Origin: Gekko japonicus
Lineage: Eukaryota
Assembly: GCF_001447785.1 (NCBI RefSeq)
Contig: NW_015175487.1
Location: 1-64,000 of the forward strand
Length of the DNA stretch: 64,000 nucleotides
Direction: 5' to 3'
In this document: piece after piece, positions 3,318-59,406 of the stretch
Layout of the letters: the number at the start of each line of letters is the position of its first letter
Numbering within the stretch: position 1 is the stretch's first letter
Translations under genes and position numbers: made by a program
Notes under the pieces: model-generated
The model's database searches: none
Seen by the model: only the letters and a program-made list of their open reading frames with translations
What the model was told of the DNA's origin: nothing

Positions 3318-3480
3318 TTAGAGACCAACAAGATTTTCAGGGTATACACTTTCAAGAGTCAAAGCTCTCTTCGTCAGAACTTTGACTCTTGAAAACTGTT
3401 ACCCTGAAAATCTTGTTGGTCTCTTAAGGTGCTACTGGACTCGAACTTAGTTCTTCTGCTGCAGACCAATATGGCTTCCC
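3318..3480. mobile_element. Penelope-like terminal fragment in inverted arrangement
   Basis: gagaccaacaagattttcagggta...caagagtcaaag is inverted against ctttgactcttg...taccctgaaaatcttgttggtctc. A CTGACGA...GAAA hammerhead-like core is present on -. Confidence 0.55.
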
Positions 3481-3534
3481 TCATTCACTGATCATGACTT
3501 TTACTCTCATTTCCCTCACAGGCTCTTTGGTCAC

Positions 3535-4473
3535 ATGGGTAGTGAAAACCTCACAATTCGGCCTGAGTTCATTCTCTTGGGCCTGTCCTCCGAGCCAGGA
3601 CAGCAGAAGCTCCTCTTTGCCATCTTTCTAGTTATGTATATTGTGGCCATCCTGGGGAACCTCTTGATCATTCTGTTGATCATCTGGGATGCCCATCTCC
3701 ACACCCCCATGTACTTCTTCGTGAGCCATCTTTCCCTGGTGGACGCTTGCTTCACCTCAGTCACCGTGCCAAAAATGTTGGCCAACCTGATATCGGAGGC
3801 AAAGACCATCTCTTACGCCGGCTGCCTGACTCAGATGTATTTCTTTTTTGCCTTTGGGGTCACCGACAGCTTCCTTCTGGCTGCCATGGCTTACGACCGC
3901 TATGTAGCCATCCGCAACCCCTTGCACTACACCAGCATGATGAGCCAGAGCCTATGCGTGGGGTTTGTGGCCAGTTCTTGGATAGTCTCTCACCTCCATT
4001 CCCTGCTGCACATTATCCTGATGACTCGCCTCTCGTTTTGTGCCTCCCGGGAGATCCCCCACTTCTTCTGTGACCACCAGCCGGTGCTAGCCCTATCTTG
4101 CACTGATACCACTTTCATTCAAATGTTGATTTTCACTGAAGGGGCCTTAGTGGTGCTCAGCCCATTTGTCTTCATTGTGATCTCTTACGCCCTCATCCTG
4201 GTCACCGTGCTGAAGCTGCCCTCAGGTTCTGGATGGCGCAAGGCTTTCTCAACCTGCGGGGCTCATCTCTCTGTGGTCACCCTGTTTTATGGCACTGTCA
4301 TTGGGGTCTACTTCCAGCCCACAGCTCGGTACTCAGCAGAGAAGGGGAGAGTTACTACCATCATGTACAGCATTGTCACACCGATGCTCAATCCTTTCAT
4401 ATACAGCTTGAGGAACAATGACGTCAAAGGCGCGTTGCGTAGAGCTCTTTGCGGGAAGGTGGAAACACAGTGA
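3535..4473 (+). CDS. OR1K1: Olfactory receptor, class II, family 1, OR1K1-like (312 aa)
   Basis: Intact 7TM ORF with [32 protein letters not shown] and [36 protein letters not shown] and AE.GRV match my recollection of mammalian OR1K1. A splice acceptor (ttccctcacag) lies just 5' of the ATG. OR identity is secure; the symbol is less so. Confidence 0.95.
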
Positions 4474-8584: not shown

Positions 8585-9517
8585 CTATTGAGAAAAGATC
8601 TTCTTTCTCAAAAGATGCCTCAGAGCTCTTTTAACGTCTTTATTTCTAAGACTGTAGATGTATGGATTGGACATTGGGGTGATAACAGTGTACATGAGAG
8701 CAAAAACGGCCCCGCGCTGGGCAGAGTAGGTGGAGGCAGGTTGGAAGTAGACCCCAATGATGGCCCCATAGAGGAGAACCACCATAGTGAGATGGGAGCC
8801 ACAGGTGGAGAACGCCTTGCGCCTCCCCGAGGAGAACTTCATCACAGTCACCACAATGCGGGCGTAAGTGAGAATAATGAAGAAAAAGGGACCAAGGATG
8901 ATGAGCCCACCCTCAAAAAAGATGGCCGCTTCATTGATGCTGGTGTCTGAGCAGGAGAGCTGGAGCAAAGGATCATGGTCGCAGAAGAAGTGGGACAGGT
9001 GGTTGTCCCCATGGTAACTGAGGCGCAGGAGGAGCCCAGCATGCAGCATGGAGTGGAGGGTGGAAACGATCCAGCACCCAGCCACCAAACGTCCACAGAC
9101 CTTCTGGCTCATCACCGTAGCATAGTGGAGTGGGTTGCAAATGGCGACATAGCGATCCAGAGCCATGACACTCACCATGAGGATGTCTGTGACACCAAAC
9201 ACATAGAAGAAGAAGAACTGAGCCATACAGGAAAAGAAAGGAATTGTCTTGGAAGAGGACATGAGGTGAACCAGCATCTGAGGCACCGTGACTGTGAGGA
9301 AGCCCACGTCCACCACAGAGAGGCTCCGCAGCAAGAAGTACATGGGGGTCTGAAGCCGGGCATCCACGGTGATTAGAATGACCATCATGATGTTGCCCAG
9401 AAGGCCTGCCCCATACATCAGCAGAAAAGAGGCGAAGAAGAGAGGCTGTTCTTCGGGTTGTGAGGAGAACCCCAGAAGAACAAACTCCACAACATCCATG
9501 CCATTCTCACAGTCCAT
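8585..9517 (-). CDS. OR1B1: Olfactory receptor, OR1B1-like paralogue A (310 aa)
   Basis: Intact OR ORF. PMYFLLRSLSVVD, AQFFFFYVFGVTD, VMALDRYVAIC, HFFCDH and NEAAIFFEGG resemble recalled OR1B1. Acceptor ttctccctgcag lies 5 nt before the ATG. Confidence 0.95.
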   Translation of the reverse strand: MDCENGMDVVEFVLLGFSSQPEEQPLFFASFLLMYGAGLLGNIMMVILITVDARLQTPMYFLLRSLSVVDVGFLTVTVPQMLVHLMSSSKTIPFFSCMAQFFFFYVFGVTDILMVSVMALDRYVAICNPLHYATVMSQKVCGRLVAGCWIVSTLHSMLHAGLLLRLSYHGDNHLSHFFCDHDPLLQLSCSDTSINEAAIFFEGGLIILGPFFFIILTYARIVVTVMKFSSGRRKAFSTCGSHLTMVVLLYGAIIGVYFQPASTYSAQRGAVFALMYTVITPMSNPYIYSLRNKDVKRALRHLLRKKIFSQ

Positions 9518-10925
9518 GGCTGCTGCAGGGAGAATCGCAACATGAGGCAGTCAGAAGAAAAGGAACTGGAAGGTCTTATATGCAGGGGCCAATGCTCCCT
9601 CTAAGCTGTGGATTCTTATATGCAGGGGCCATTTCCTGCAGGAGCGCACAGGAACGGAGCTCTGGCAGTAAGGAGCCCAGGGGGTGGGCACATGCAGCAA
9701 GCCTTTCCCCTGTTCCCAGCAGCCCTCAATCGAGCCACAAAGAACAAGAGGCAGCCAGGTAAGTTGCAGAGCCCCCACCACCACCTTCAGGTACAAGCTC
9801 TCCCTCCTCTGTGAGGGCAGATCTGCGCTTCCCCCCATAGCTAGCAATCCAAAACAGTCCAGTGGAGCCTGAGCGGTGGGGGTTGCCTTCTGACACACTC
9901 CCAGTGATGTCAGGGGGTGTGGCATATGCAAACAAGTTATGCTAATAAGTTATTCTAAGAGCTCCTGTACCTCTTTTTCTACAAAATGACCCCTGCTTAT
10001 ATGTACAAACTCATGCCAGAAGGTAGGCCCTTCCAGAACAGAAATGCCCTTATTGGAACAAATTTACTTTGCTGAATTTTCCATTTCCAAGGTTCGGCTT
10101 CTGTATTTGAAATATTTAGCACTATAGAGGGTGGATTGTGTTCTGACTGGCAGTTTTTAAAACCGAAGGCCATAAAATTGTCAGGTTCAGTGATCAAAAT
10201 CTGTCAAATATCACTGTTACCATCCGTCAGTGAGAGAAACCTGTGTGAACCTTCTGTGCTTGTTATCAGGAGCTAGACAGAGCACGTATCTTACTCCCAT
10301 CCTGCAGTCTCCCCACTGGCCGCCCATCAGTTAGGGGGCTCAATTTACAGTATTAGCTATCACTCACAAAGCCCTTCATGGCCTTGGGCCTGCAAATCTA
10401 CCAGGCTGCCTCTTCCTCTACGCTCCGCCATGACAGCTCTGCTCATCGGAGGAGGGTCTGCCGGAGGTGCCAACCTGCAAATGGGCAAGACTAACACCTG
10501 CCTGTATGCGTGCTTCCTCCACTGCGGCCCCCACCTTATGGCGCAGCCTTCCTGAGGAGGTCAAGGAAAGCTCCCACCCTCCTGGCGTTCTGCAAACTAT
10601 GCAAAACAGAATTCCTCGCGGAATTATTCAAGAGGACTGTGATCTGGACTACTGTGTGTAGCTTGCCGAAACTAGGATCCTGCTATGGAACTTCGCATCG
10701 TTTGATGTGTCATGTTAATAGTAATGTTTTGCTTCAGTTCTGTCTTTAGATTTCTGTCTGGTTCTATGGCCCTAATCCTATCGCATTGGTCATTTAATGT
10801 CCCGTCCATCAGTTGTCTTGACTCACTTTGTGAAACTGCCTTGAGTCCAAGTGAGAAAAGCAAGGTTAACATGTTTGCTGTCCGTCACTAACTGTCGCAT
10901 CAATAAGTAAATAAGTAAGATATGG

Positions 10926-22432: not shown

Positions 22433-22492
22433 ATGGAGCAGGTAATGAAAGCCGAGCGCTGGAGAACACGTGGAGGCAAAAAACGTGAGGTG
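22433..22492 (+). CDS. Candidate first coding exon of the uncharacterised multi-exon gene (MEQ or MEQVMKAERWRTRGGKKREV)
   Basis: ATG at 22433 in a CpG-containing unique stretch. Two phase-0 donors (gtaatg at 22442, gtgagg at 22493) both fit the phase-0 exon at 24804. Confidence 0.35.
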
Positions 22493-24803: not shown

Positions 24804-24882
24804 GGAAATAAGAAGAAGCTGCCTCTACGACAAAGAGTGTGGAGGGCAATCTTCGCCAAGAAAATATATAACATGCCAGAAG
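24804..24882 (+). CDS. Coding exon (GNKKKLPLRQRVWRAIFAKKIYNMPE) of the uncharacterised gene
   Basis: cctgcag acceptor and AAG|gtaggt donor. 79 nt, phase 0 to 1, joining in frame to the exon at 28126. Confidence 0.55.
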
Positions 24883-28125: not shown

Positions 28126-29511
28126 CCAACCAGGAGTCAGTGGTGGCTGCGCTGGAGGAGGACCAGGAGAAGGAGGAGGAGGTGGGGACCGGCCACAAGG
28201 AAGGTCATCTAACCCAAAGCCATCAACCTGGAAACGAGAACCTTCTGTCCAAGCCGAACCTGGCCACAGATGCGATACCCGTTTCCTTAGCGAACCAAAA
28301 CCTTTCAGCTGACCTTCAACGGTCAATTCTCCACAGCATCAAGCAGATATTTGATGAGGAACTGGAGAGGAGTGCCACTCCCCCAGTTTGCTTGGTTGAA
28401 AGGCAGAATGTCAGCTCTCTCTTCACTCCTTTGCGTCCCGTCAAGCAGTCTCCCTGCACACAAGACCAGCCCGTTTTGGAAATGCTTCTTAGGAAAAACA
28501 CAAGTTATGAAAGAAATCTCCAGATCCGCACCCATCACACCAGAAGAACCATCATCAATGAAATCTACCAAATTATCATTGCAGAGGTGGAGAATTTTCC
28601 ACATTCTTTCTTCCTTCAAGGAACATTCCCAACTTCTGGAATTGAGGAATTCCGAATGCTAGAGCGAGCTGCCACGAATGTCCAGGAACACCTGCCCCAA
28701 CCAGCGATCAAGAGAAGTAACGTGCTGCGGGTGTCAGAAGGTTGGATTCAGGTTGTGCTTGAAGATTTGAGTATTGCTCTCGCAGGTGCTGAGAGAACCC
28801 ATGGGGCATTTTCCCACCTAGTCCACTCTGGCTTTGGTGTCGTTGAAAAGATAGTGCAGATTCTTGGCCATACTGGTGGAATTCTGACCGAGGCACAGTT
28901 TAGGGACCATGTCGTAGATCTAGGCATGGGCAAATGCCAAATCCACAGCCAGACTAAAACTCCAGACGATTTGGCTGCTAGACAGCTTTCAAGCTTGGAA
29001 GACTCTTCCCCTGAAGGGATCACCAAATACCTCGTCAACAATGTTTCCATCAGGCTGATGGCGTTCACCAAAAATAAATTGGACTCTGTTTGGACACTTC
29101 TTGGACGCCATCTTCCAGTTCCTGACATCCATCCTGCCGAAACTAACATCAGGTGGTGCTCTGAAAAACTAATACATACCATCCTGGAACTTGTTCAACG
29201 AGACCTAGAACTGGAGGTGACCTCTGCCCCAAATATTCTTCCTTGTGAAGAGTACACAAATATTAAGGAAACTGTAAAGGGTCTCTGCCAGATCTTGACT
29301 TGCCAAATAGCTAGAACAAAAACAGATATCCAGAAAAGAGCAGTAGAGAAGATCTTTCGGAGGCATCTTTTGGAGCAGAATGGAACTTTGCCATTGATGG
29401 CAAGCACGGAAGAGATCTTAAACCAGGTCACCTTGCATTCTTGGCCATCCATTGTAGAGAATCTTTGCTGTCCTCCAAAGGACACAGTGTCAAGCCTTCC
29501 AGCTAACAGAG
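28126..29511 (+). CDS. Large 1386-nt coding exon (about 462 aa, helical) of the uncharacterised gene
   Basis: Lies within the 491-codon ORF 28098-29573. Bounded by cccacag| and AGAG|gtgagt, phase 1 to 1. Non-repetitive, with no TE motifs that I can recognise. Confidence 0.8.
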
Positions 29512-30986: not shown

Positions 30987-31771
30987 AGACCTGAGGCTCC
31001 GGGTGGGGCCATTCCTGCTTCTACTGTTTTTAATCATGCAGGATTCTTTTATGGTTTTCTTCTGTTTCTCCTGACAGGTTTCTTTTGCATTTCTCATTTT
31101 GATTTCCATACACTGACATAACTTTATGGATTTGTGATGACTTTTGTGGGCCCTTTAACTCCTGCCCTTTGACTCACACCACTGCCAAGGAGGAGCCTTA
31201 CAGTTCAGAGGCCCACAGTTCCCGCCTCCCAGTAGGAGCAGCAGAGGGTGGGGCCTGCAATCAGACCGAACCCCCCCCAGCAAACAGACCTTGCTCAATG
31301 AGCACCTGACCAGACAAAAGGCCCAAAGACAAAAACACCACTCTCCAGCAAGCGATAAGCCCCCACTTGCCCTCAAACTCTGTCCTCTCACAAAGCAACC
31401 TCAAGTAATGTTCCCCAGTGGTTTAGCGGTTTAGGAAAGGCAAAAAAGCCACAACCCCTCATCTCCTGGGTTCTTTCTCCCAGCCCAGCTGGGTCAGTTC
31501 TGCTTAGGAGGAGCCTTAAAGTTCAGAGGCCCACAGCCTCCACCACCCAGAAATAAGCCCTGGGCAAACAGACCTGGATTTCATGGATTTGTGAGCCGTC
31601 TTGTTGACTGTGTGAGCAGAAGAAAAAAAGAGAGTTGTGCCCAGCAGGGCTCCTTCCTGGGTTGCCGTCACTTGGCTCCAAGGTCATGTGCTGCAAAAGT
31701 GCCGTGGCATAAGGAGGGGGGGGGTGTCTTGGGCAGCAAATCTGACATGGGCATGCCCTGTGCAATTTCAG

Positions 31772-34700
31772 GGACGGAGGAGAACAAGGACAATGGCCGA
31801 TGGGAGGACACTGCCCAGGGTACTGACTCAAAGGACCAAGGGTTAAGTGAGCAAAGCCACTGCGATTCCAAGGCTCCAAAGGTTGGCTCAGCTGAAGACA
31901 AAGGAGGTGCAGCAACCCCCTCGGTGAGCAGGCAAGTTAGTCAAGGGAGAATGCTGTTTGAAAGGATTGCTGAGGTGGGGAAAGGGCCTTATACTGGCGT
32001 GGGGAAAGATCCTGATCAGCCTCAGACTCTGGAGAACAACCGCCAGTCAGATCAGGTCTGATGGAGCTCAATGAACCAATGGCCCGGCCGAATAGAAAGC
32101 AGTTTCATTTGGCTACAGCAGGAGTCTCCAATACCATGCCTGTGGGTACCTTCCTTGGTACCTGCCAAGTGCTTTAGAAAATGGGCACGATAAACCTCAA
32201 TGGAGTGGACATCTGTTCCAGGCCCCTTTGCTTATTAAAATGAGATACCTCCTGGAGCATGAGAAGTTGCAGCTAAGAGATGGCCTTTCTTCCTCAGGTT
32301 CTGAAACAAATTGCTCCAGGCACCTCCTCTGCCCTCAACAGCAGCCAAATCGAGGCAACTTCACACACCGACCCACAACCTCCAGTGAAGACAGAGGGTG
32401 GTAATCTATTCTTCTTTCAAATATTGTTCCCCCCCCCTCGCTTCAGAAGCGCCATGCCATGAGGAGAGGGGGGTCTTGGGTAGCAAATCTGACATGGGCA
32501 TGCCCTGTGCAATTTCAGGGACGGAGGAGAACAAGGAAGATGGCCGACACGAGGACACTGCCCGGGATCGTGACCCAGAGGACCAAGGGGTAAACGAGCA
32601 AAGCCACTGCGACTCTAAGGCGTCAAAAGCTGACTCAGCTGAAGACGAAGAAGGTTCAGCAACCCCCTCGGTGAGTAGACAAGTGAGTCAAGGGAGGGAC
32701 TCCTCTTCCTGGATGTCCCTGCTCCTCAGGGGAGAGGAGAGGGTGGATTGAGACAAGACCTCTCCTGCCATTATTCGCAACCCCCGGAATGTCCTAGCAA
32801 GGGCGGTGGGTGTCCGACGGAAGGGCCAAGGGCAGGTGATGGCGGAGATGCTTCCCCGTCCTCCTCACTATCCACTGACGGCAGCCTCTATTGCATCCAG
32901 GGAAGGCTCTTTTGGGCTGGGAGGGAGGTGGGAGGTGGCGCCCAGCCCTGGCCAGGCAAAGGAGAGCTCCTGGAGAAGTGCCCCCAGGAATCCTGTTGCC
33001 CACGGGCTCCTCATTGGGGGATGCTGAATGAAAGGATTCCTGGGGCAGGGGAAAGCCCTGATCAGCCTCAGGCTCCGGAGAACAACAGCCAGTGCGGTGG
33101 AGCTCCATGAACCAAGGGCCTGGCTGAACAGAGCTACAGCAGGGGTCTCCAATATCGTGCCCATGGCCACCTTTCCTGGTCCTCACCAAGTGCCTTAGAA
33201 AACCACACTTTTAGCGGTTGGCTCTGCTGCCCCTTATGGCAGGTAGTCTGCAAGTCTTTTGCAAGCGGGAGGTCTGAAATCCAGCCCCCGGCCTCTCATA
33301 TAACTACAGTTAAAACTTAACATTTAGGGGCTGTGTGCTTCCACTCCCCTTCCTTTGGGTGTGTGTGTGAGAGAGAGTATTTTCTCTGTGTGTGCATGCT
33401 TATGGGCCTGGAAGTCATGGTGACTTCTGGTGACCCCCCAGGCAATATCAAGCCGCTTCCCTTCCTAACAGCACAAGTGACCAAACCCTCCTGCCTCTCT
33501 ATAGTTTTCTGCCTGACAACACACCCCTGTCCCCCAAGCATAGGTTCTTTATGAAGACGGGGGCCACAAGAGCCAGAATCTCCCTTCCAGTTTGGAGGAG
33601 AACGCTACACAGAGAGTGATTAAGCTGTGGAATTCACCACCAGAGAATGGCCACAGGAATAAGCAGCTGTAAAAGGAGATTAGATGGAGGATAAAGTCTA
33701 TCAATGGCTACTAGCCATTGTGGCTCAGGGGAACCTCCATGTTCAGAGGCACTCTGAATCCCAGAGACAGGGGGCAACATCAGGGGAATGCCTCGGCCTC
33801 TATGTCCTGTTGTTGGCTCTCCAGTGGAACTGGTTGACCACTGAGTGAGACAAGGTGGTAGACTAGATGGACCCTCACTGGTCTGATCCAGCAGAGTTCT
33901 GATGTTCTCAACACCATGGATGGGGGAAACTTCAGTCCTGGGCTCAAGAAGTTGGCTACCTCTGTTTCTGCTTATCAAAATGAAATACCTCCTGAAGCAT
34001 GAGAAGTTGCAGCTAAGAGATGGCCTTTCTTCCTCAGGTTCTGAAACAAATTGCTCCAGGCACCTCCTCTGCCCTCAACAGCAGCCAGATTGAGGCAACT
34101 TCACACACCGACCCACAACCTCCAGTGAAGACAGAGGGTGGTAATCTATTCTTCTTTCAAATATTGTTCCCCCCTCGCTGCAGAAGTGCTGTGGCCTGAG
34201 GGGGGTCTTGGGCAGCAAATTTGACATGGGCATGCCCTGTGCAATTTCAGGGACTGAGGAGAACAAGGAAGATGGCCGACAAGAAAATACTACCCGGAAT
34301 AGGGACTCAGAGGACCAAGGGGTAAACGAGCAAAGCCACTGCGACTCCGAGGCTCCAAAAGCTGACTCAGCTGAAGACGAAGAAGGTTCAGCAACCCCCT
34401 CGGTGAGTAGACAAGTTATTCAAGGGAGGGACTCTTCTCGCTGGATGTCTCTCCAGAAGAACTGGTTGGTCACTGTGTGAGACACGGGGATAGACTAGGT
34501 GGAACACTGGTCTGATCCTGCAGGGCTCTTCTGATGTTCTTAACATCATGGATGGGGAACTCTGGTCTCCGAAGAGCAAGGCTGTGGGAAACTTCAGTCC
34601 TGGGCTCAAGAAGTTGGCTACCACTCTTTCTGCTGAAGCTTGGAATTGACAGACCGTACCATCTACAATCCATTGCATTTCCATGCTTTCCTGGTTATCC

Positions 34701-35902
34701 TTCAGTCTCAGGACCTGATGCCTGCTGATTTTAAACATGAAACACCTATAGAAATGATAATTGGGCACAGCCTTTGTGGAAAAGGCTTCTTTGTGGAAAA
34801 GGCTTCTTAAATCTCAATGAATGGAAGCCTGTTCCGGCCCCCTTTGCTTATCAAAATGAAATATTTCCTGTCCTGGAGCATGAGAAGCTACATCTAAGAG
34901 ATGGCCTTTCTTCCTCAGGTTCTGAAACAAATTGCTCCAGGCACCTCCTCTGCCCTCAACAGCAGCCAGATTGAGGCAACTTCACACACCGACCCACAAC
35001 CTCCAGTGAAGACAGAGGGTGGTAATCTATTCTTCTTTCAAATATTGTTCCCCCCTCGCTGCAGAAGTGCTGTGGCCTGAGGGGGGTCTTGGGCAGCAAA
35101 TTTGACATGGGCATGCCCTGTGCAATTTCAGGGACTGAGGAGAACAAGGAAGATGGCCGACAAGAAAATACTACCCGGAATAGGGACTCAGAGGACCAAG
35201 GGGTAAACGAGCAAAGCCACTGCGACTCCGAGGCTCCAAAAGCTGACTCAGCTGAAGACGAAGAAGGTTCAGCAACCCCCTCGGTGAGTAGACAAGTTAT
35301 TCAAGGGAGGGACTCTTCTCGCTGGATGTCTCTCCAGAAGAACTGGTTGGTCACTGTGTGAGACACGGGGATAGACTAGGTGGAACACTGGTCTGATCCT
35401 GCAGGGCTCTTCTGATGTTCTTAACATCATGGATGGGGAACTCTGGTCTCCGAAGAGCAAGGCTGTGGGAAACTTCAGTCCTGGGCTCAAGAAGTTGGCT
35501 ACCACTCTTTCTGCTGAAGCTTGGAATTGACAGACCGTACCATCTACAATCCATTGCATTTCCATGCTTTCCTGGTTATCCTTCAGTCTCAGGACCTGAT
35601 GCCTGCTGATTTTAAACATGAAACACCTATAGAAATGATAATTGGGCACAGCCTTTGTGGAAAAGGCTTCTTTGTGGAAAAGGCTTCTTAAATCTCAATG
35701 AATGGAAGCCTGTTCCGGCCCCCTTTGCTTATCAAAATGAAATATTTCCTGTCCTGGAGCATGAGAAGCTACATCTAAGAGATGGCCTTTCTTTCTCAGG
35801 TTCTGAAACAAATTGCTCCATGCACCTCCTCTGCCCTCAAAAGCAGCCAGATCGAGACGTCTTCACACACCGACCCACAACCTCCAGTGAAGACAGAGAG
35901 TG
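31772..35902 (+). CDS. Four tandem two-exon modules. Exon B (152 nt): 31772-31923, 32519-32670, 34251-34402, 35132-35283. Exon A (103 nt): 32298-32400, 34038-34140, 34919-35021, 35800-35902. Each module encodes 85 aa.
   Basis: All B copies are tttcag|GG...TCG|gtgag (phase 1 to 0). All A copies are ctcag|GTT...TG|gtaatc (phase 0 to 1). No stops or indels in the spliced frame. Confidence 0.7.
34012..35793 (+). repeat. Apparently identical 881-bp tandem duplication
   Basis: The ORF track gives identical translations offset by 881 (34208/35089, 34388/35269, 34534/35415). Confidence 0.9.
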
Positions 35903-36962
35903 GTAATCTATTCTTCTTTCAAATATTGTTCCCCCCCTCGCTCCAAGGAATGAGCCAGTTTCACTATAGAGTTTTTGCCCAAATACCAGAGCGTCGACCA
36001 GATGTCGGTGGTATGATGTCATCACTTCCCATGCGACACTGGCAACAAGGCCTAGGCCTTTCTCTTTCTCCTCATAAATTCCCCTCATCCCCCGCTGGTT
36101 CCCAGCAGGGACCTGGCAACCCTAGCCTGCTGCCTCCTGCCTGCCATCAGCTGGTGCCTTTCATCCCACTGCCCCTGGCCCACTAGTTCCCTGCTCCTAC
36201 TCTTGAGGAAGCCCTTCCACTCAAGGAGGCCTTTTCCCCCCCAGAGTCCTTTGCTCCACAGGGAGCCAGTACAGATGGGTAGGGTTGCCAGGTTCCTCGG
36301 AACGGCTGGCGGGGGATGAGAGGCAGACTTACTGGGAGCTGGGAGGAACACTGGGAATTAACACAACATACCTACGTGACCCGGAAGTGACATAAGCATG
36401 TCCAGAACATGGGGGGGGGGATGCTCTGGTTTGGGGGCAGAACTCTATGGTAGAATTAGCCTCTACCATAGAGTTTTGCCCAAAAACCAGAGTGTTGCCT
36501 CCTGATATCCCTGACATGCCTACGTCACTTCAGAGTCACATAGGCACGTCGTATTAATTTCTCGTGTTCCTTCCTTTTTTGTGTATGTGGGGGTAATCCT
36601 CCTCTTCTGGCCGGTTGGCCAGTGGCAGAGATGTGGGGGCTGGCAGCAGGAAAACCCCACCCCCACGGGGGGAGGGGGTCTGGCATCTCTACTGGTGGGC
36701 CTGCCTTCTGGCTGCTCCTCTCCTGCTGTGGCCGCCCCGCCTGGCTCTCTTCTCAGCTCTGCCCTCCTTAGAGCTGCACCCCCGCTCCACCCCTTCTCCC
36801 TCAGGTGTCGGGTACCATGGCACTGTGACACAACCTCAGACTGGGGGCCTGGTCCAGGCTTCCCTCTCCCACAACCCAAGAGATGCTGCCGGGAGACTGA
36901 AGGGGCAAAGGGGGCCGCTTCCATACTCCGGAGTCAGCACCATTCCTTTCTTGTTCCTGCAG

Positions 36963-37039
36963 AGCCCAAGAAGCCGAAGAAGAAGAGGTCCGTCTTCAGG
37001 AGGCTCTTCTGGTGCGGCAGCAAAAGGCAGAGGCCCTGA
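36963..37039 (+). CDS. Terminal coding exon (EPKKPKKKRSVFRRLFWCGSKRQRP*) of the uncharacterised gene
   Basis: Strong acceptor cattcctttcttgttcctgcag, phase 1, TGA at 37037-37039. AATAAA at about 37770 follows an AT-rich tract. Confidence 0.6.
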
Positions 37040-38367
37040 AAAGACCACCGTGCCTTTCTGCAGGAGTCAATGTCCCTCCTTGCCTGTCAGTCTCTATGGC
37101 ATGGTGCCAGCGCAGCAAGTTGGCAGCAAATAACGGATAGGCACGCTCCTTAGCAAGCTACCAGGGGAGGGGGACAGGTAGCGAACGCGTGGGAGCCTGC
37201 AGTGGCCCAGCCACAGCCATCATGAAGCACAGAGCATCAGGATCCAGGCAGGAAGGGAGGGCAGACACCTGTTGATTCCCAGGAAGGGGTGGCCTGGGCC
37301 ATGGGACTGCGGAGGGAGGGCCCCACAGTGCTCCACAGGGAACGCCCCTGCCCCACTGCAAGTTCCCTTTGCCAGGCAAGAGGAATGCAGAGCGGGACAC
37401 AGCAAAGGGAAGATGCAACTAAGCCAAAAAAAAAAAAAAACTGTCCCAAAATTGTCCAGTAGCTCATTAAGAAAAGGCAGGCATGAAAAGGGAGTCATGA
37501 GTTCGAGTCCCGTGAAGGGCCAAGTTGGCTAGCAGGCAACGATCCTAGCTGTGCTTATGCCCAGCAGCAAGCCTTATTATTATTGCAGTTTGTGGTTCTT
37601 CTTATTGTCTTTATATTTATCATTGGAGTTCTTATACATGTTATTAATTATTATTGATTGCTTCTTATTCTTATGATTATTAATATTAGAGTTTCTACAG
37701 TTTATAGCAATAATTATTATAGCACTTATTATTAAAGTTCTTATCCTCAATATTTGTATTATTTGGGTTAATAAAGTTGTTCTGAAACTGTGGCTGAATC
37801 TGCATTTGTCTTTCCCACCCGTGTCCCAGCCTTTTGACTCTGTCTTCAAAAAAGCTGTCTACATTTGGTGTCGTTTTCACACCTCAACAGTGCTAGCATA
37901 CTTTTGCACGTCCACATATGTTTATCGTCCTTTCAGGGCAGCTCCACCGTCATTGCACCTCCACACTGCTTTAAAAGAATCTTCTCCAAACAACATTCAA
38001 ACAAGCATAGAGAAAGACGGCGTCACAGCAGCACAAAACTGATTTAAAAATGCAAATACAGATTCGACCTAAATGAGAATGGATTAGGATAATCTGTACA
38101 ACCGCACAACTATTGTGAAACCAGGTTTCTTTTCTTCTGAAAGAAAAAAGGTTTTCCAGCCGTCTGCAAACACAGGTGTCCTTTGACTGCCATCCCTCAC
38201 GCAAACTCACTTGCTGAGCTTCAAGAGGCAGTGCTGAACCATGGCCTAGGCATATGGGAACGGGGCACAGAGGTGGCAGCAAAGGCCAGAGGTGGCCAAA
38301 GGCAGCAACTGTTCCAGGACAGGATATCAAGGGAGGAAGGGGAGAGACAGAGAGGAAGAGGAAGGCA

Positions 38368-39199: not shown

Positions 39200-40135
39200 T
39201 TAGTGAGAAAACGATATCCTACCCAAGAGGTTCCTCAGGGCCTTTTTGACGTCTTTATTCCTGAGACTGTAGATGTAGGGGTTGGACATGGGGGTGACAA
39301 TCGTGTACACGAGAGCAAAAATGGTCCCTCGTTGGGAAGAATAGCTGGACGTGGGTAGGAAGTAGACCCCAGTGACAGCACCGTAGAAGAGCAGCACCAT
39401 GGTAAGATGAGAGCTACACGTGGAGAAAGCTTTGCGCCTTCTTGCAGCAGAGAACTTTATCACAGCTGCCACGATGCGGACATAGGTGACGACGATGAAG
39501 GCAAAAGGCCCGAGGATGACGGGAACGCCCTCGAAGAAGATGGCCGCTTCGTTGGCGCTGGTGTCTGAGGAGGAGAGCTGGAGCAAGGGCTGGTGGTCGC
39601 AGAAGAAGTGGGACAGGTGGTTGTCCCCACAATAACTGAGGCGCAGGAGGAGGCCAGCATGCAGCATGGAGTGGAGGGTGGAAACGATCCAGCACCCAGC
39701 CACCAAACGTCCACAGACTTTCTGGCTCATCACCGTAGCATAGTGGAGCGGGTTGCAAATGGCGACATAGCGATCCAGAGCCATGACACTCACCATGAAG
39801 ATGTCTGTGACACCAAACACGTAGAAGAAGAAGAACTGAGCCATGCAGGAATAGAAAGGGATTGCCTTGGAAGAGGACAAGAGGTGAACCAGCATCTGAG
39901 GCACCGTGACTGTGAGGAAGCCCATGTCCACCACAGAAAGGCTCCGCAGCAAGAAGTACATGGGGGTCTGAAGCCGGGCATCCACGGTGATCAGAAGGAC
40001 CATCACGATGTTGCCCAGGAGGCCTGCCCCATACATCAGCAGAAAAGAGGCGAAGAAGAAAGGCTTTTCTTTGGGTTGTGAGGAGAACCCCAGAAGCACA
40101 AACTCCGCAACATCCGTGCCATTCTCACAGTCCAT
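39200..40135 (-). CDS. OR1B1: Olfactory receptor, OR1B1-like paralogue B (311 aa)
   Basis: Close paralogue of 8585-9517. Start placed at 40135 (MDCENG) because the in-frame ATG at 40156 lies upstream of the acceptor ttctctccgcag. Confidence 0.95.
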   Translation of the reverse strand: MDCENGTDVAEFVLLGFSSQPKEKPFFFASFLLMYGAGLLGNIVMVLLITVDARLQTPMYFLLRSLSVVDMGFLTVTVPQMLVHLLSSSKAIPFYSCMAQFFFFYVFGVTDIFMVSVMALDRYVAICNPLHYATVMSQKVCGRLVAGCWIVSTLHSMLHAGLLLRLSYCGDNHLSHFFCDHQPLLQLSSSDTSANEAAIFFEGVPVILGPFAFIVVTYVRIVAAVIKFSAARRRKAFSTCSSHLTMVLLFYGAVTGVYFLPTSSYSSQRGTIFALVYTIVTPMSNPYIYSLRNKDVKKALRNLLGRISFSH

Positions 40136-40289
40136 GGGACCTGCGGAGAGAATCATAGTTGGAGACCGTCAGAAGGAACCAGAAGGTCTGACAGATACAA
40201 CTTTCTACCATAAAGTAGGCCCATCTTGAACTGAAAGGTTGGGAAATGTTTACATTGGGATCTTAAAGCCTAAGAGCTTTGTGCTTGAA

Positions 40290-57829: not shown

Positions 57830-58768
57830 TCATTTACTCTGAAAACGTCTGCTCTTTTCCCAAAGTCTCACAATAGCTGCCTTTATGTCATGGTTCCTCA
57901 AGGTGTAAATGAATGGATTCAGCATAGGGATGACCACTGCGTACAAGAGAGAAGTAACGGTGCCTTTCTGGGCTGAGTAAGCAGACGTAGGCTGGAAATA
58001 GAGGCAGCTGATGGTCCCATAGAACAGGACCACAACAGTCAGATGAGAGCCACAGGTCGAGAAGGCCTTGCGCTTCCCAGCAGCAGATGGTACTTTCATG
58101 ATGGCACAGAAGATGCGCATGTAGGAGATGATAATGAGGACAAAGGGTCCCAGAATGTCCACCACACCCTCCGTCTGTGCCAGGGTCTTTATAAGTCTGG
58201 TGCTTGAGCAGGAGAGTTCCAGGAGAGGGTAGACATCACAGAAAAAATAGGGGATCTCCCAGGAGGAGCAGAAAGAAAGGCGGGACGTCAGAAGAGTGTA
58301 GAGCAAAGAGTGAAGAGCAGAAAGGATCCACGATCCGCACGCCAGAACAAGGCAGCACTTGTGGCTCATCACAGTGGTATAGTGCAGTGGGCGACAGATG
58401 GCCACGTAGCGGTCGTAAGCCATGCAAGCCAGGAGGAAGCTATCAGTGTTGCCAAAGGTTAAGAAGAAATACATCTGGGTCAAGCACCCGCTGTAGGAGA
58501 TGGCCTTGATGGGAGACACCAGGTTCACCAGTATCTTGGGGACAGTGCTGGAAACAAAACCTAAGTCAGCCAGGGAGAGGTGACTGAGGAAGAAGTACAT
58601 CGGGGTACGAAGGAGGTGATGGTCCAAACGGATCAGGAGGACAATCAGAAGGTTTCCTAGCAGAGTCAACACGTAGAAGGAGAGGAAAAGCAGGAAGAGG
58701 AGATTCTGGTGTTGAGGCTGGGTGGAGAGACCCAAAAGGACAAATTCAGAGATGCCTGTTTGGTTCAT
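57830..58768 (-). CDS. Olfactory receptor, family 1 (OR1L/OR1J-like), 312 aa
   Basis: Intact ORF with [37 protein letters not shown] and [12 protein letters not shown]. Acceptor tcttcttttcacag lies just upstream of the ATG. Confidence 0.95.
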   Translation of the reverse strand: MNQTGISEFVLLGLSTQPQHQNLLFLLFLSFYVLTLLGNLLIVLLIRLDHHLLRTPMYFFLSHLSLADLGFVSSTVPKILVNLVSPIKAISYSGCLTQMYFFLTFGNTDSFLLACMAYDRYVAICRPLHYTTVMSHKCCLVLACGSWILSALHSLLYTLLTSRLSFCSSWEIPYFFCDVYPLLELSCSSTRLIKTLAQTEGVVDILGPFVLIIISYMRIFCAIMKVPSAAGKRKAFSTCGSHLTVVVLFYGTISCLYFQPTSAYSAQKGTVTSLLYAVVIPMLNPFIYTLRNHDIKAAIVRLWEKSRRFQSK

Positions 58769-59406
58769 ATTGGCCTTTTTATAGCTGTGAAAAGAAGAGA
58801 CAGAGAAGTCGGGGTGCAGTGGTTAGAGTTGTGGTCCCCAGCATTTCCGAGCCCGCAGGCACCTTTGGAGTTCTGGGAGAGAGTAGTGGGCGCAGCCAGA
58901 AAATGGCTGCCGCTGGAGGTGGAGCGAGTCACAAAATGGCCGCCGCAGCTTACCTTCAGTCACACAGCGAGAATCCTTGCGCCGTGGTGGCAGCTGCTGC
59001 CAAAGCAACGTTTTAACAGATCTGCACAGCCAATCAAATGTCCAGTGGCCAATCAGAATCCTTGCTGGGCATAACCTGCCCCCAACCACTGTCTAAAAAC
59101 ACCTGCCAGGCCCCCAGGAAAGGTGTTGGCGGGAACCTGGACACCCACAGGTACCACATTGGGAACCCCTAGGTTAGAGTGTTGGACTAGGAACTGGGAA
59201 ACCAGGTTTGAAAAGTATTTTATATTGCTATCACTTATATCGCTTTAAGCTGACGTTTTTATTGCTGCCACCTGGGCATCCTGGGGCTGCACCAGATCCA
59301 AGAACATGTCCATACCATATATCTTATCCTTAAGCATAAATGTGCTATCCAGAAAGGGTATTGCAGCCTTTTCTGGAATGGGCAAACCCCCCCCCATTAA
59401 TATCTG

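What the first reader, a model, noticed from the sequence alone, without database searches (positions are those of the whole stretch)
31772..35902. Protein repeat growing by tandem duplication of a phase-closed two-exon cassette
Seen: exon B (phase 1 to 0) plus exon A (phase 0 to 1) total 255 nt, so any number of cassettes keeps the frame. Exon lengths are exactly 152 and 103 in all copies, while introns differ by indels (118 vs 110 nt) and carry CR1 insertions. The alternative frame of exon A has TGA in copies 2 and 3, whereas the spliced frame stays open. B copies differ by many amino-acid changes (KDNGRWEDTAQG / KEDGRHEDTARD / KEDGRQENTTRN). Inference: selection on frame with relaxed or diversifying sequence, giving a tunable-length disordered spacer that may also be alternatively spliced.
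Basis: partly seen in the sequence, partly recalled or inferred. Interest (0 to 1): 0.7.

Follow-up and report, generated by a model that had tools for sequence, protein, structure and literature searches.

The report
Repeated exon pair, dispensable FSIP2-like tail
In a gecko-like gene that carries a piece of the sperm-tail protein FSIP2, a pair of exons is repeated in frame four times in this assembly, but sequencing runs of other animals show a frameshift at the start of the repeats and an intron left unspliced inside them, so the repeats are likely a dispensable, often untranslated tail rather than a protein spacer tuned by selection.

Summary
The anatomy is real: four B (152 nt) and four A (103 nt) exons, all AG/GT, 85 codons a pair. 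They end a gene whose 1386-nt exon is a fragment of FSIP2. The interpretation mostly fails. (1) Contigs of two other runs (X1 DNA, X3 RNA-like; X2 by length arithmetic) carry a 7-nt deletion in B1 that stops the protein 9 codons later, before every repeat. (2) In X3 the short A-to-B intron is retained at exon-level depth (47.7 against 0-4 for other introns); retention stops even the window's allele. (3) Substitutions between copies look neutral (omega about 0.8, P about 0.5); only the lack of exon indels hints at past frame selection (P 0.01-0.07). (4) The fourth cassette is a perfect 881-nt duplicate with single-copy depth in X1: an assembly loop or a private allele. Verdict: a known kind of event (tandem duplication of a 1-0/0-1 exon pair) in a young FSIP2-derived gene whose tail is likely dispensable.

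The parts
24804..24882 (+). Upstream coding exon (79 nt, phase 0 to 1), GNKKKLPLRQRVWRAIFAKKIYNMPE; a further exon with the start codon lies upstream and was not located
   Evidence: AG/GT; paralog on G000 C2326 with 65% amino-acid identity; inclusion inferred from the length of X3 record 16: 30+79+1386+145+99 = 1739
28126..29511 (+). Large exon (1386 nt, phase 1 to 1), about 400 residues of it a fragment of FSIP2
   Evidence: 33% identity, E 2e-65 to an FSIP2-like ORF on G000 C7870; 5 hits among representatives, 2 named FSIP2 and a third named 'FSIP2 C-terminal domain-containing' by UniRef; dN/dS about 0.5 against the C7870 ORFs
31772..31923 (+). Exon B1 (152 nt)
   Evidence: spliced at both ends in X3 record 16
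31810..31817 (+). Site of a net 7-nt deletion in other runs; it brings the TAA at 31844-31846 into frame and ends the model at 510 aa
   Evidence: table 4 (X3 30.8 of 30.8, X1 66.7 of 66.7); X2 by the length of record 9; translation
32298..32400 (+). Exon A1 (103 nt)
   Evidence: X3 bin depth 17.1 matches 100 letters of record 16
32401..32518 (+). Hybrid A-to-B intron i1 (118 nt), made by the first duplication; has an in-frame stop if retained (593-aa model)
   Evidence: retention before B2 inferred from X3 bin depths
32519..32670 (+). Exon B2
34038..34140 (+). Exon A2
34141..34250 (+). A-to-B intron i2 (110 nt), retained in X3
   Evidence: X3 record 21 spans 34107-34254 unbroken, depth 47.7, 0 differences; 118 of 118 k-mers under a retained model, 5 of 118 under a spliced one
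34251..34402 (+). Exon B3
34013..35793 (+). Perfect tandem duplicate of period 881 nt (holds A2-i2-B3 and A3-i3-B4); assembly loop or private copy-number allele
   Evidence: exact 900-nt match; X1 depths fit 3 cassettes better than 4
34919..35021 (+). Exon A3 (identical to A2)
35132..35283 (+). Exon B4 (identical to B3)
35800..35902 (+). Exon A4, the most diverged A
   Evidence: spliced to the last exon by inference from X3 record 23
36963..37039 (+). Coding part of the terminal exon, EPKKPKKKRSVFRRLFWCGSKRQRP-stop
   Evidence: X3 record 23, depth 51.7, starts its match at the acceptor; paralog on G000 C4512, 58% identical
33606..33972 (.). High-copy repeat fragments in the B-to-A introns (also about 34446-34545 and 35327-35426); CR1 label recalled, not tested
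   Evidence: matches elsewhere in the window; contig depth above 100,000

Best explanation
The cassettes are real tandem copies of an in-frame exon pair at the 3' end of a gene built on an FSIP2 fragment, and they likely form a dispensable, nearly neutrally evolving tail that many transcripts are predicted not to translate. Shown: exon anatomy and phase; homology of the large exon to FSIP2; a 7-nt deletion in B1 in other runs; retention of the A-to-B intron in X3 contigs; neutral-like substitutions. Inferred steps: (1) an FSIP2 segment was duplicated into a small gene (upstream exon, FSIP2 fragment, basic terminal exon); a decayed paralog on C4512 has this layout with no B or A. (2) A phase 1-0/0-1 pair B-A came to lie between two phase-1 boundaries. 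(3) One tandem duplication, with a 3-nt microhomology (GCT) at the junction, joined A's donor to B's acceptor across a new 110-118-nt intron; unequal crossing-over then gave a third copy with the same junction. (4) Phase closure let these copies pass without harm, which needs no selection for them. (5) The new short intron is spliced poorly, so about half or more of X3 transcripts keep it and would stop there; a common frameshift in B1 removes the whole tail while leaving the FSIP2 module intact. (6) The fourth copy is a false loop of the assembly or a private allele. The remaining 510-aa protein would most likely act as a small scaffold in the sperm tail, by analogy to FSIP2 (untested).
For: Deletion in 2 of 4 runs directly (X1, X3; two studies), in X2 by length, X6 has no reads there; 510-aa and 593-aa truncated models; record 21 and k-mer simulation for retention; pooled 29.75 N and 11.25 S changes, omega 0.77, binomial P 0.57, simulation P 0.25-0.54; chance of no stop under neutrality 0.16-0.25; B no more conserved than flanking intron; X1 depth fit rms log 0.12 for 3 cassettes against 0.30 for 4; cassette-less paralog; large exon under some constraint, omega about 0.5 with an open 462-codon frame.
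Against: No indel among 41 exon substitutions against 5-9 among about 55 in flanking intron (one-sided Fisher P 0.009-0.069; 0.04-0.21 if the deletion allele is counted; intron counts tallied by eye), so the frame was probably under some selection in the past. A is more conserved than B (7 of 103 against 24 of 152, P 0.03) and A1-A2 differ only at 2 synonymous sites; B2-B3 omega is 0.33. All 8 splice sites are intact. Logan contigs keep one side of a bubble, so X1-X3 may be heterozygous and spliced A-to-B forms may have been dropped. X3's kind and tissue are not on record; its RNA nature is inferred. The exon-joint rows were hidden among 52 not shown, so B1-to-A and A4-to-last splices rest on record ends and bin arithmetic.
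Confidence: 0.6

Rival explanations
1. One reading: the repeat is a selected, length-tunable disordered spacer between the FSIP2 module and a basic C-terminal motif; the deletion is a recent loss-of-function allele or is confined to other populations.
For: Open 853-aa frame and 8 intact splice-site pairs; no exon indels in the window; terminal-exon peptide conserved in a paralog; A exons well conserved.
Against: Deletion in every run that covers the site; intron retention at exon-level depth in X3; neutral-like N/S ratio; no relative of the B-containing peptide among 5 candidates scored.
Confidence: 0.15
2. The whole gene is turning into a transcribed pseudogene: the deletion allele makes no useful protein.
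For: Premature stop upstream of several exon junctions; two decayed or partial paralogs elsewhere; no close homologue of the large exon in two protein searches.
Against: Large exon open over 462 codons with omega about 0.5; the length of X3 record 16 leaves no room for a further net indel in it; the deletion transcript is abundant in X3 (depth 31-52).
Confidence: 0.15
3. Long and short forms are both used: intron retention and the deletion allele act as switches that remove the tail and its basic end, and the alleles are kept by selection.
For: Two independent routes give nearly the same truncation while sparing the FSIP2 module; both alleles exist (window against X1, X3).
Against: No test of allele age or frequency was possible; poor splicing of a newly made intron explains retention without a purpose.
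Confidence: 0.1
4. On the fourth cassette only: it is a real, very recent unequal-crossover allele of the assembled animal rather than an assembly loop.
For: A crossover in the 19-nt identity between the two intron ends would give exactly this sequence; contig ends in X1 and X2 fit the junction that the duplicate needs.
Against: X1 depths fit three cassettes; X2's shared intron piece has single-copy depth 66.6; 0 differences in 900 nt; a single variant at the last acceptor would close the same loop in an assembly graph.
Confidence: 0.45

Closest known systems
Disordered modules grown by duplication of symmetric exons or 1,0-0,1 exon pairs (MAP2, calpastatin; PMC3632108, abstract and section 19 read)
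   Same: A 1-0 plus 0-1 exon pair duplicated in tandem, encoding low-hydrophobicity sequence; that paper describes the same pair type in MAP2.
   Different: MAP2 and calpastatin repeats are conserved functional modules; here changes look neutral, the new intron is retained and a common frameshift removes the repeats.
FSIP2, fibrous sheath-interacting protein 2 (P0003 Lacerta agilis, P0005 Varanus komodoensis; role from passages of PMC11276731)
   Same: About 390-440 residues of the large exon align at 28-33% to lizard FSIP2.
   Different: FSIP2 is 4,400-6,100 aa in these hits; this gene keeps one fragment and adds exons (upstream exon, B, A, terminal exon) with no significant match to these FSIP2 proteins. 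Full-size FSIP2-like ORFs lie on another contig.
False tandem duplication in genome assemblies (bioRxiv 10.1101/2020.05.22.110833, passages read)
   Same: Exact duplicate inside a repeat array with single-copy depth in other data; the paper notes such errors can be misread as exon duplications.
   Different: Applies at most to the fourth cassette; the first three differ by 9-18% in B and are seen in other runs. The assembled animal's own reads were not examined.

Membership tests
Selected disordered repeat from a duplicated 1,0-0,1 exon pair (MAP2 type) | Phase-closed unit in tandem copies | tested here: met
   152+103 = 255 nt, 4 copies
Selected disordered repeat from a duplicated 1,0-0,1 exon pair (MAP2 type) | Disorder-type composition | tested here: met
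   12% hydrophobic residues against 33% in the large exon; composition only, no disorder predictor or fold was run
Selected disordered repeat from a duplicated 1,0-0,1 exon pair (MAP2 type) | All units spliced in frame in transcripts | tested here: not met
   A-to-B intron retained in X3 at depth 47.7; one run only, spliced forms may have been dropped from contigs
Selected disordered repeat from a duplicated 1,0-0,1 exon pair (MAP2 type) | Frame kept across individuals | tested here: not met
   7-nt deletion in B1 in X1 and X3, and in X2 by length
Selected disordered repeat from a duplicated 1,0-0,1 exon pair (MAP2 type) | Purifying selection among copies | tested here: inconclusive
   omega 0.77, P 0.57; indel deficit P 0.009-0.21; low power with 41 changes
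Selected disordered repeat from a duplicated 1,0-0,1 exon pair (MAP2 type) | Conservation in other species | not testable with these tools
   No related genome is held; protein searches found no orthologue, which is weak evidence
FSIP2 | Sequence homology to named FSIP2 | tested here: met
   E 6e-48 to 2e-32 for 5 proteins, 2 named FSIP2
FSIP2 | Full-length giant protein | tested here: not met
   Model 853 aa plus an unlocated 5' exon; one fragment only, so FSIP2-derived, not FSIP2
FSIP2 | Pfam family match | tested here: inconclusive
   No significant Pfam hit for the large exon nor for the two C7870 ORFs
FSIP2 | Testis expression and AKAP4 binding | not testable with these tools
   Tissue of X3 and X6 not given; X3 covers the exons, X6 has no reads on them; no binding test run
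False tandem duplication (fourth cassette) | Near-perfect identity of the two copies | tested here: met
   900 of 900
False tandem duplication (fourth cassette) | Single-copy read depth in the assembled animal | not testable with these tools
   Only other runs were laid; X1 fits three cassettes
CR1 retrotransposon (intronic insertions) | Match to a CR1 model | not tested
   No repeat library on hand; high copy number shown, label recalled

The most novel reading that the evidence does not exclude
A young, gecko-lineage gene made from an FSIP2 fragment segregates as long and short sperm-protein forms: a common frameshift allele and retention of a duplication-born intron each remove a 260-340-residue disordered tail with its basic C-terminal motif, while cassette number (3 or 4) also varies between animals, and these forms are kept by selection. 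This would be a protein repeat caught in the act of being gained and switched off within one species.
Probability: 0.1. Interest if true: 0.6.

Novelty: new member of a known kind. Interest (0 to 1): 0.3.

Why it matters
It is a clear worked case that a phase-closed exon repeat with an open frame in one assembly is not evidence of selection: other animals' reads show a frameshift before it, a retained intron inside it and one copy fewer. The side result, an apparently undescribed gene built from an FSIP2 fragment inside an olfactory-receptor cluster, with decayed paralogs, is of modest interest for how new sperm-related genes arise. It also shows how a tandem duplication creates a new short intron that the spliceosome may handle poorly.

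Tried and rejected
Pfam: no significant family for the large exon, B, A, upstream or terminal exon or the C7870 ORFs. The search for homologous proteins found nothing for the large exon or a B2-containing ORF: weak evidence. The protein atlas gave no answer. Origin of B and A: local alignments against the upstream intron, the terminal region and the C4512 paralog gave only marginal scores (best P 0.005-0.04 among 15 tests, gappy), and none against FSIP2 proteins; unresolved. X2 record 9 joins intron i1 to B1, which looks like an extra cassette; rejected as a likely graph-simplification join across a 55-nt identical stretch, since both competing edges are missing. X2's lack of B3 contigs was not taken as a two-cassette allele for the same reason. 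Positive selection on B1 (15.75 N, 3.25 S on its branch) is not distinguishable from neutral. The TGA in A's other frame is a single synonymous change, not evidence of selection. A candidate first coding exon near 22445 was seen but not confirmed. The scan's earlier findings held nothing. Six literature searches listed no paper on this gene; only listed results were seen, and no supplements were read. No structure or complex prediction was run.
Full report
Observation. The A-to-B introns are 118, 110 and 110 nt; the B-to-A introns 374, 1367, 516 and 516 nt. B and A occur nowhere else in the genome search (4 of 4 matches in the window each time). One qualification matters: 34013-34912 equals 34894-35793 letter for letter, so A2=A3 and B3=B4 and there are only three distinct cassettes.

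Host gene. Upstream lies a 1386-nt exon (28126-29511, phase 1 to 1). It is 33% identical over 456 columns (E 2e-65) to an ORF of over 2,270 codons on contig C7870. A search of all protein representatives gave 5 hits; 2 are named FSIP2 (Lacerta agilis, Varanus komodoensis), one is named FSIP2 C-terminal domain-containing by UniRef, one is a Gekko kuhli hypothetical protein, one is unnamed. The two C7870 ORFs are 49-90% identical to these over about 2,250 residues, 90% to the Gekko protein, so the genome is gecko-like and holds full-size FSIP2-like genes elsewhere. The window gene keeps one fragment of about 400 residues, preceded by a 79-nt exon (24804-24882) and followed by the cassettes and a terminal exon (36963-37039 coding). 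The joined model is open for 853 aa; the start exon was not found. Against the C7870 ORFs the large exon has dN/dS 0.48-0.54. A paralog on C4512 has pieces of the large exon broken by SINE-like insertions, its donor region and the terminal exon, with no B or A match; C2326 has a paralog of the 79-nt exon with altered splice sites and no large exon in 30 kb. The gene sits among four olfactory-receptor ORFs. In mammals FSIP2 is a fibrous-sheath scaffold proposed to bind AKAP4 (PMC11276731, passages read); a like role for the fragment is inference.

How the array arose. The A-to-B intron is a hybrid: its first 40 nt match the intron after A4, its last 70-80 nt match the intron before B1, and the two meet at GCT. 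All three such introns share the junction. So one tandem duplication of B-intron-A made it, and later copies likely came by unequal crossing-over (inferred). The outer exons are the most diverged (19 of 33 B changes on B1, 6 of 8 A changes on A4).

Selection within the window. On three-copy star trees the exons carry 29.75 non-synonymous and 11.25 synonymous changes: omega 0.77, binomial P 0.57; neutral simulations give P 0.25-0.54 for that many synonymous changes and a 0.16-0.25 chance of no stop. B1-B2 differ by 15.8%, no less than flanking intron (5.6-16.8%). Against my reading: no indel among 41 exon substitutions versus 5-9 among about 55 in intron (P 0.009-0.069, counts by eye; 0.04-0.21 with the deletion allele); A is more conserved than B (P 0.03); B2-B3 alone has omega 0.33. 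Past selection on frame is thus plausible, present selection is not shown.

Other animals. Four of 24 listed runs were laid on 31700-37100. X3 (kind not on record) behaves as RNA: records end at splice sites, exon depth is 31-66 and unique intron depth 0-4. Its record 16 (1739 nt, depth 30.8) covers B1 from the acceptor to the donor; bin depths reproduce 100 further letters on A (17.07 against 17.1) and no run-on into the intron (8.61 against 8.62); its length equals 30+79+1386+145+99, which fits the gene model with 30 = k-1 letters of an upstream exon (inferred; the joint rows were among 52 not shown). Record 23 joins 33 other letters to the terminal exon, as a spliced A4 predicts. So the gene is transcribed and B1-to-A and A-to-last are likely spliced.

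Two results cut against the protein-repeat reading. First, B1 lacks a net 7 nt at 31810-31817 in X3 (30.8 of 30.8) and X1 (66.7 of 66.7), and in X2 by the length of record 9; X6 has no reads there. This ends the model at 510 aa...GRWEDWVLTQRTKG-stop, before every repeat but after the whole FSIP2 fragment. Contigs keep one side of a bubble, so these animals may be heterozygous, but the allele is not rare: two studies, every run that covers the site. B2 has the 7 nt, so the deletion is derived. Second, X3 record 21 runs unbroken from A through the whole 110-nt intron into B at depth 47.7; 118 of its 118 k-mers exist in a retained model and 5 in a spliced one, and the retained model predicts a 113-nt piece 32493-32605 that bin depths also imply. 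A rough split of shared k-mers puts retention at about half or more of local transcript level (my estimate). Retention stops even the window's allele at 593 aa. Spliced A-to-B forms may exist and have been pruned. X6 (raw RNA, 1,675 million letters read) had no reads on the exons, so expression is likely tissue-restricted; tissues are unknown.

Copy number. Expected relative depths for five X1 records are 1, 1, 1.86, 1, 1 with three cassettes and 1, 2, 2.86, 1.96, 1 with four; observed 66.7, 67.7, 144, 92.4, 82.2 fit three best (rms log 0.12, heterozygous 0.19, four 0.30; 5 of the 8 listed X1 records were used, the other three being single-copy flanks at 63.8-89.8). Contig ends in X1 and X2 do fit the junction the duplicate needs, which one base variant at the last acceptor would also give. 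The fourth cassette is therefore a false loop or a private allele; I cannot tell which. False duplications misread as exon duplications are described in bioRxiv 10.1101/2020.05.22.110833 (passages read).

Mechanism. Phase closure lets the pair be copied without breaking the frame, so the array needs no selection to exist. The duplication made a short intron that is often retained, and a common frameshift removes the tail altogether while sparing the FSIP2 module. The tail is most likely dispensable (0.6). Rivals: selected spacer (0.15), decaying gene (0.15), maintained long/short forms (0.1).

Comparison with what is known. Duplication of 1,0-0,1 exon pairs encoding disordered modules is described for MAP2, and symmetric-exon duplication is common in disordered proteins (PMC3632108, abstract and section 19 read). 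This array arose like those but fails two membership features here (splicing of all units, frame kept across animals). The gene is FSIP2-derived, not FSIP2. Six searches (listings only, except the three papers named) showed no paper on it; no supplements were read. Novelty: new member of a known kind. Interest 0.3.

Noticed in passing
G000 C7870: L011 1-6813 (+) and L014 3097-9999 (-): Two FSIP2-like open frames of over 2,270 codons, in opposite orientation about 295 kb apart, diverged from each other (dS about 0.54 over 445 codons): FSIP2 appears duplicated in this genome.
   Followed up: partly
G000 C4512 72538-75448 (-), L023: Decayed paralog of the window gene: pieces of the large exon interrupted by SINE-like repeats, its donor region and an intact-looking terminal exon, with no B or A exon; retrotransposon-like frames lie upstream (label recalled).
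   Followed up: partly
G000 C2326 34569-39859, L028/L034: Partial paralog of the 5' region with the 79-nt exon present twice and altered splice sites; no large exon found in 30 kb.
   Followed up: partly
window 3451-4473 (+), 8585-9550 (-), 39200-40168 (-), 57830-58822 (-): Four intact olfactory-receptor ORFs (Pfam 7tm_4); the two that flank the FSIP2-derived gene are 87% identical and in the same orientation.
   Followed up: partly
window 22445-22492: Candidate first coding exon (ATG, basic peptide, GT donor in phase 0) for the FSIP2-derived gene; not confirmed.
   Followed up: no
window 24804-24882 and 36963-37039: The upstream and terminal exons both encode short basic, aromatic peptides (KKKLPLRQRVWRAIF; KKKRSVFRRLFW), each conserved in a paralog; possible membrane- or phosphatase-binding motifs, untested.
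   Followed up: no
window 35948-36531: High-copy element with inverted repeats begins just after the point where the intron behind A4 stops matching the hybrid introns.
   Followed up: no
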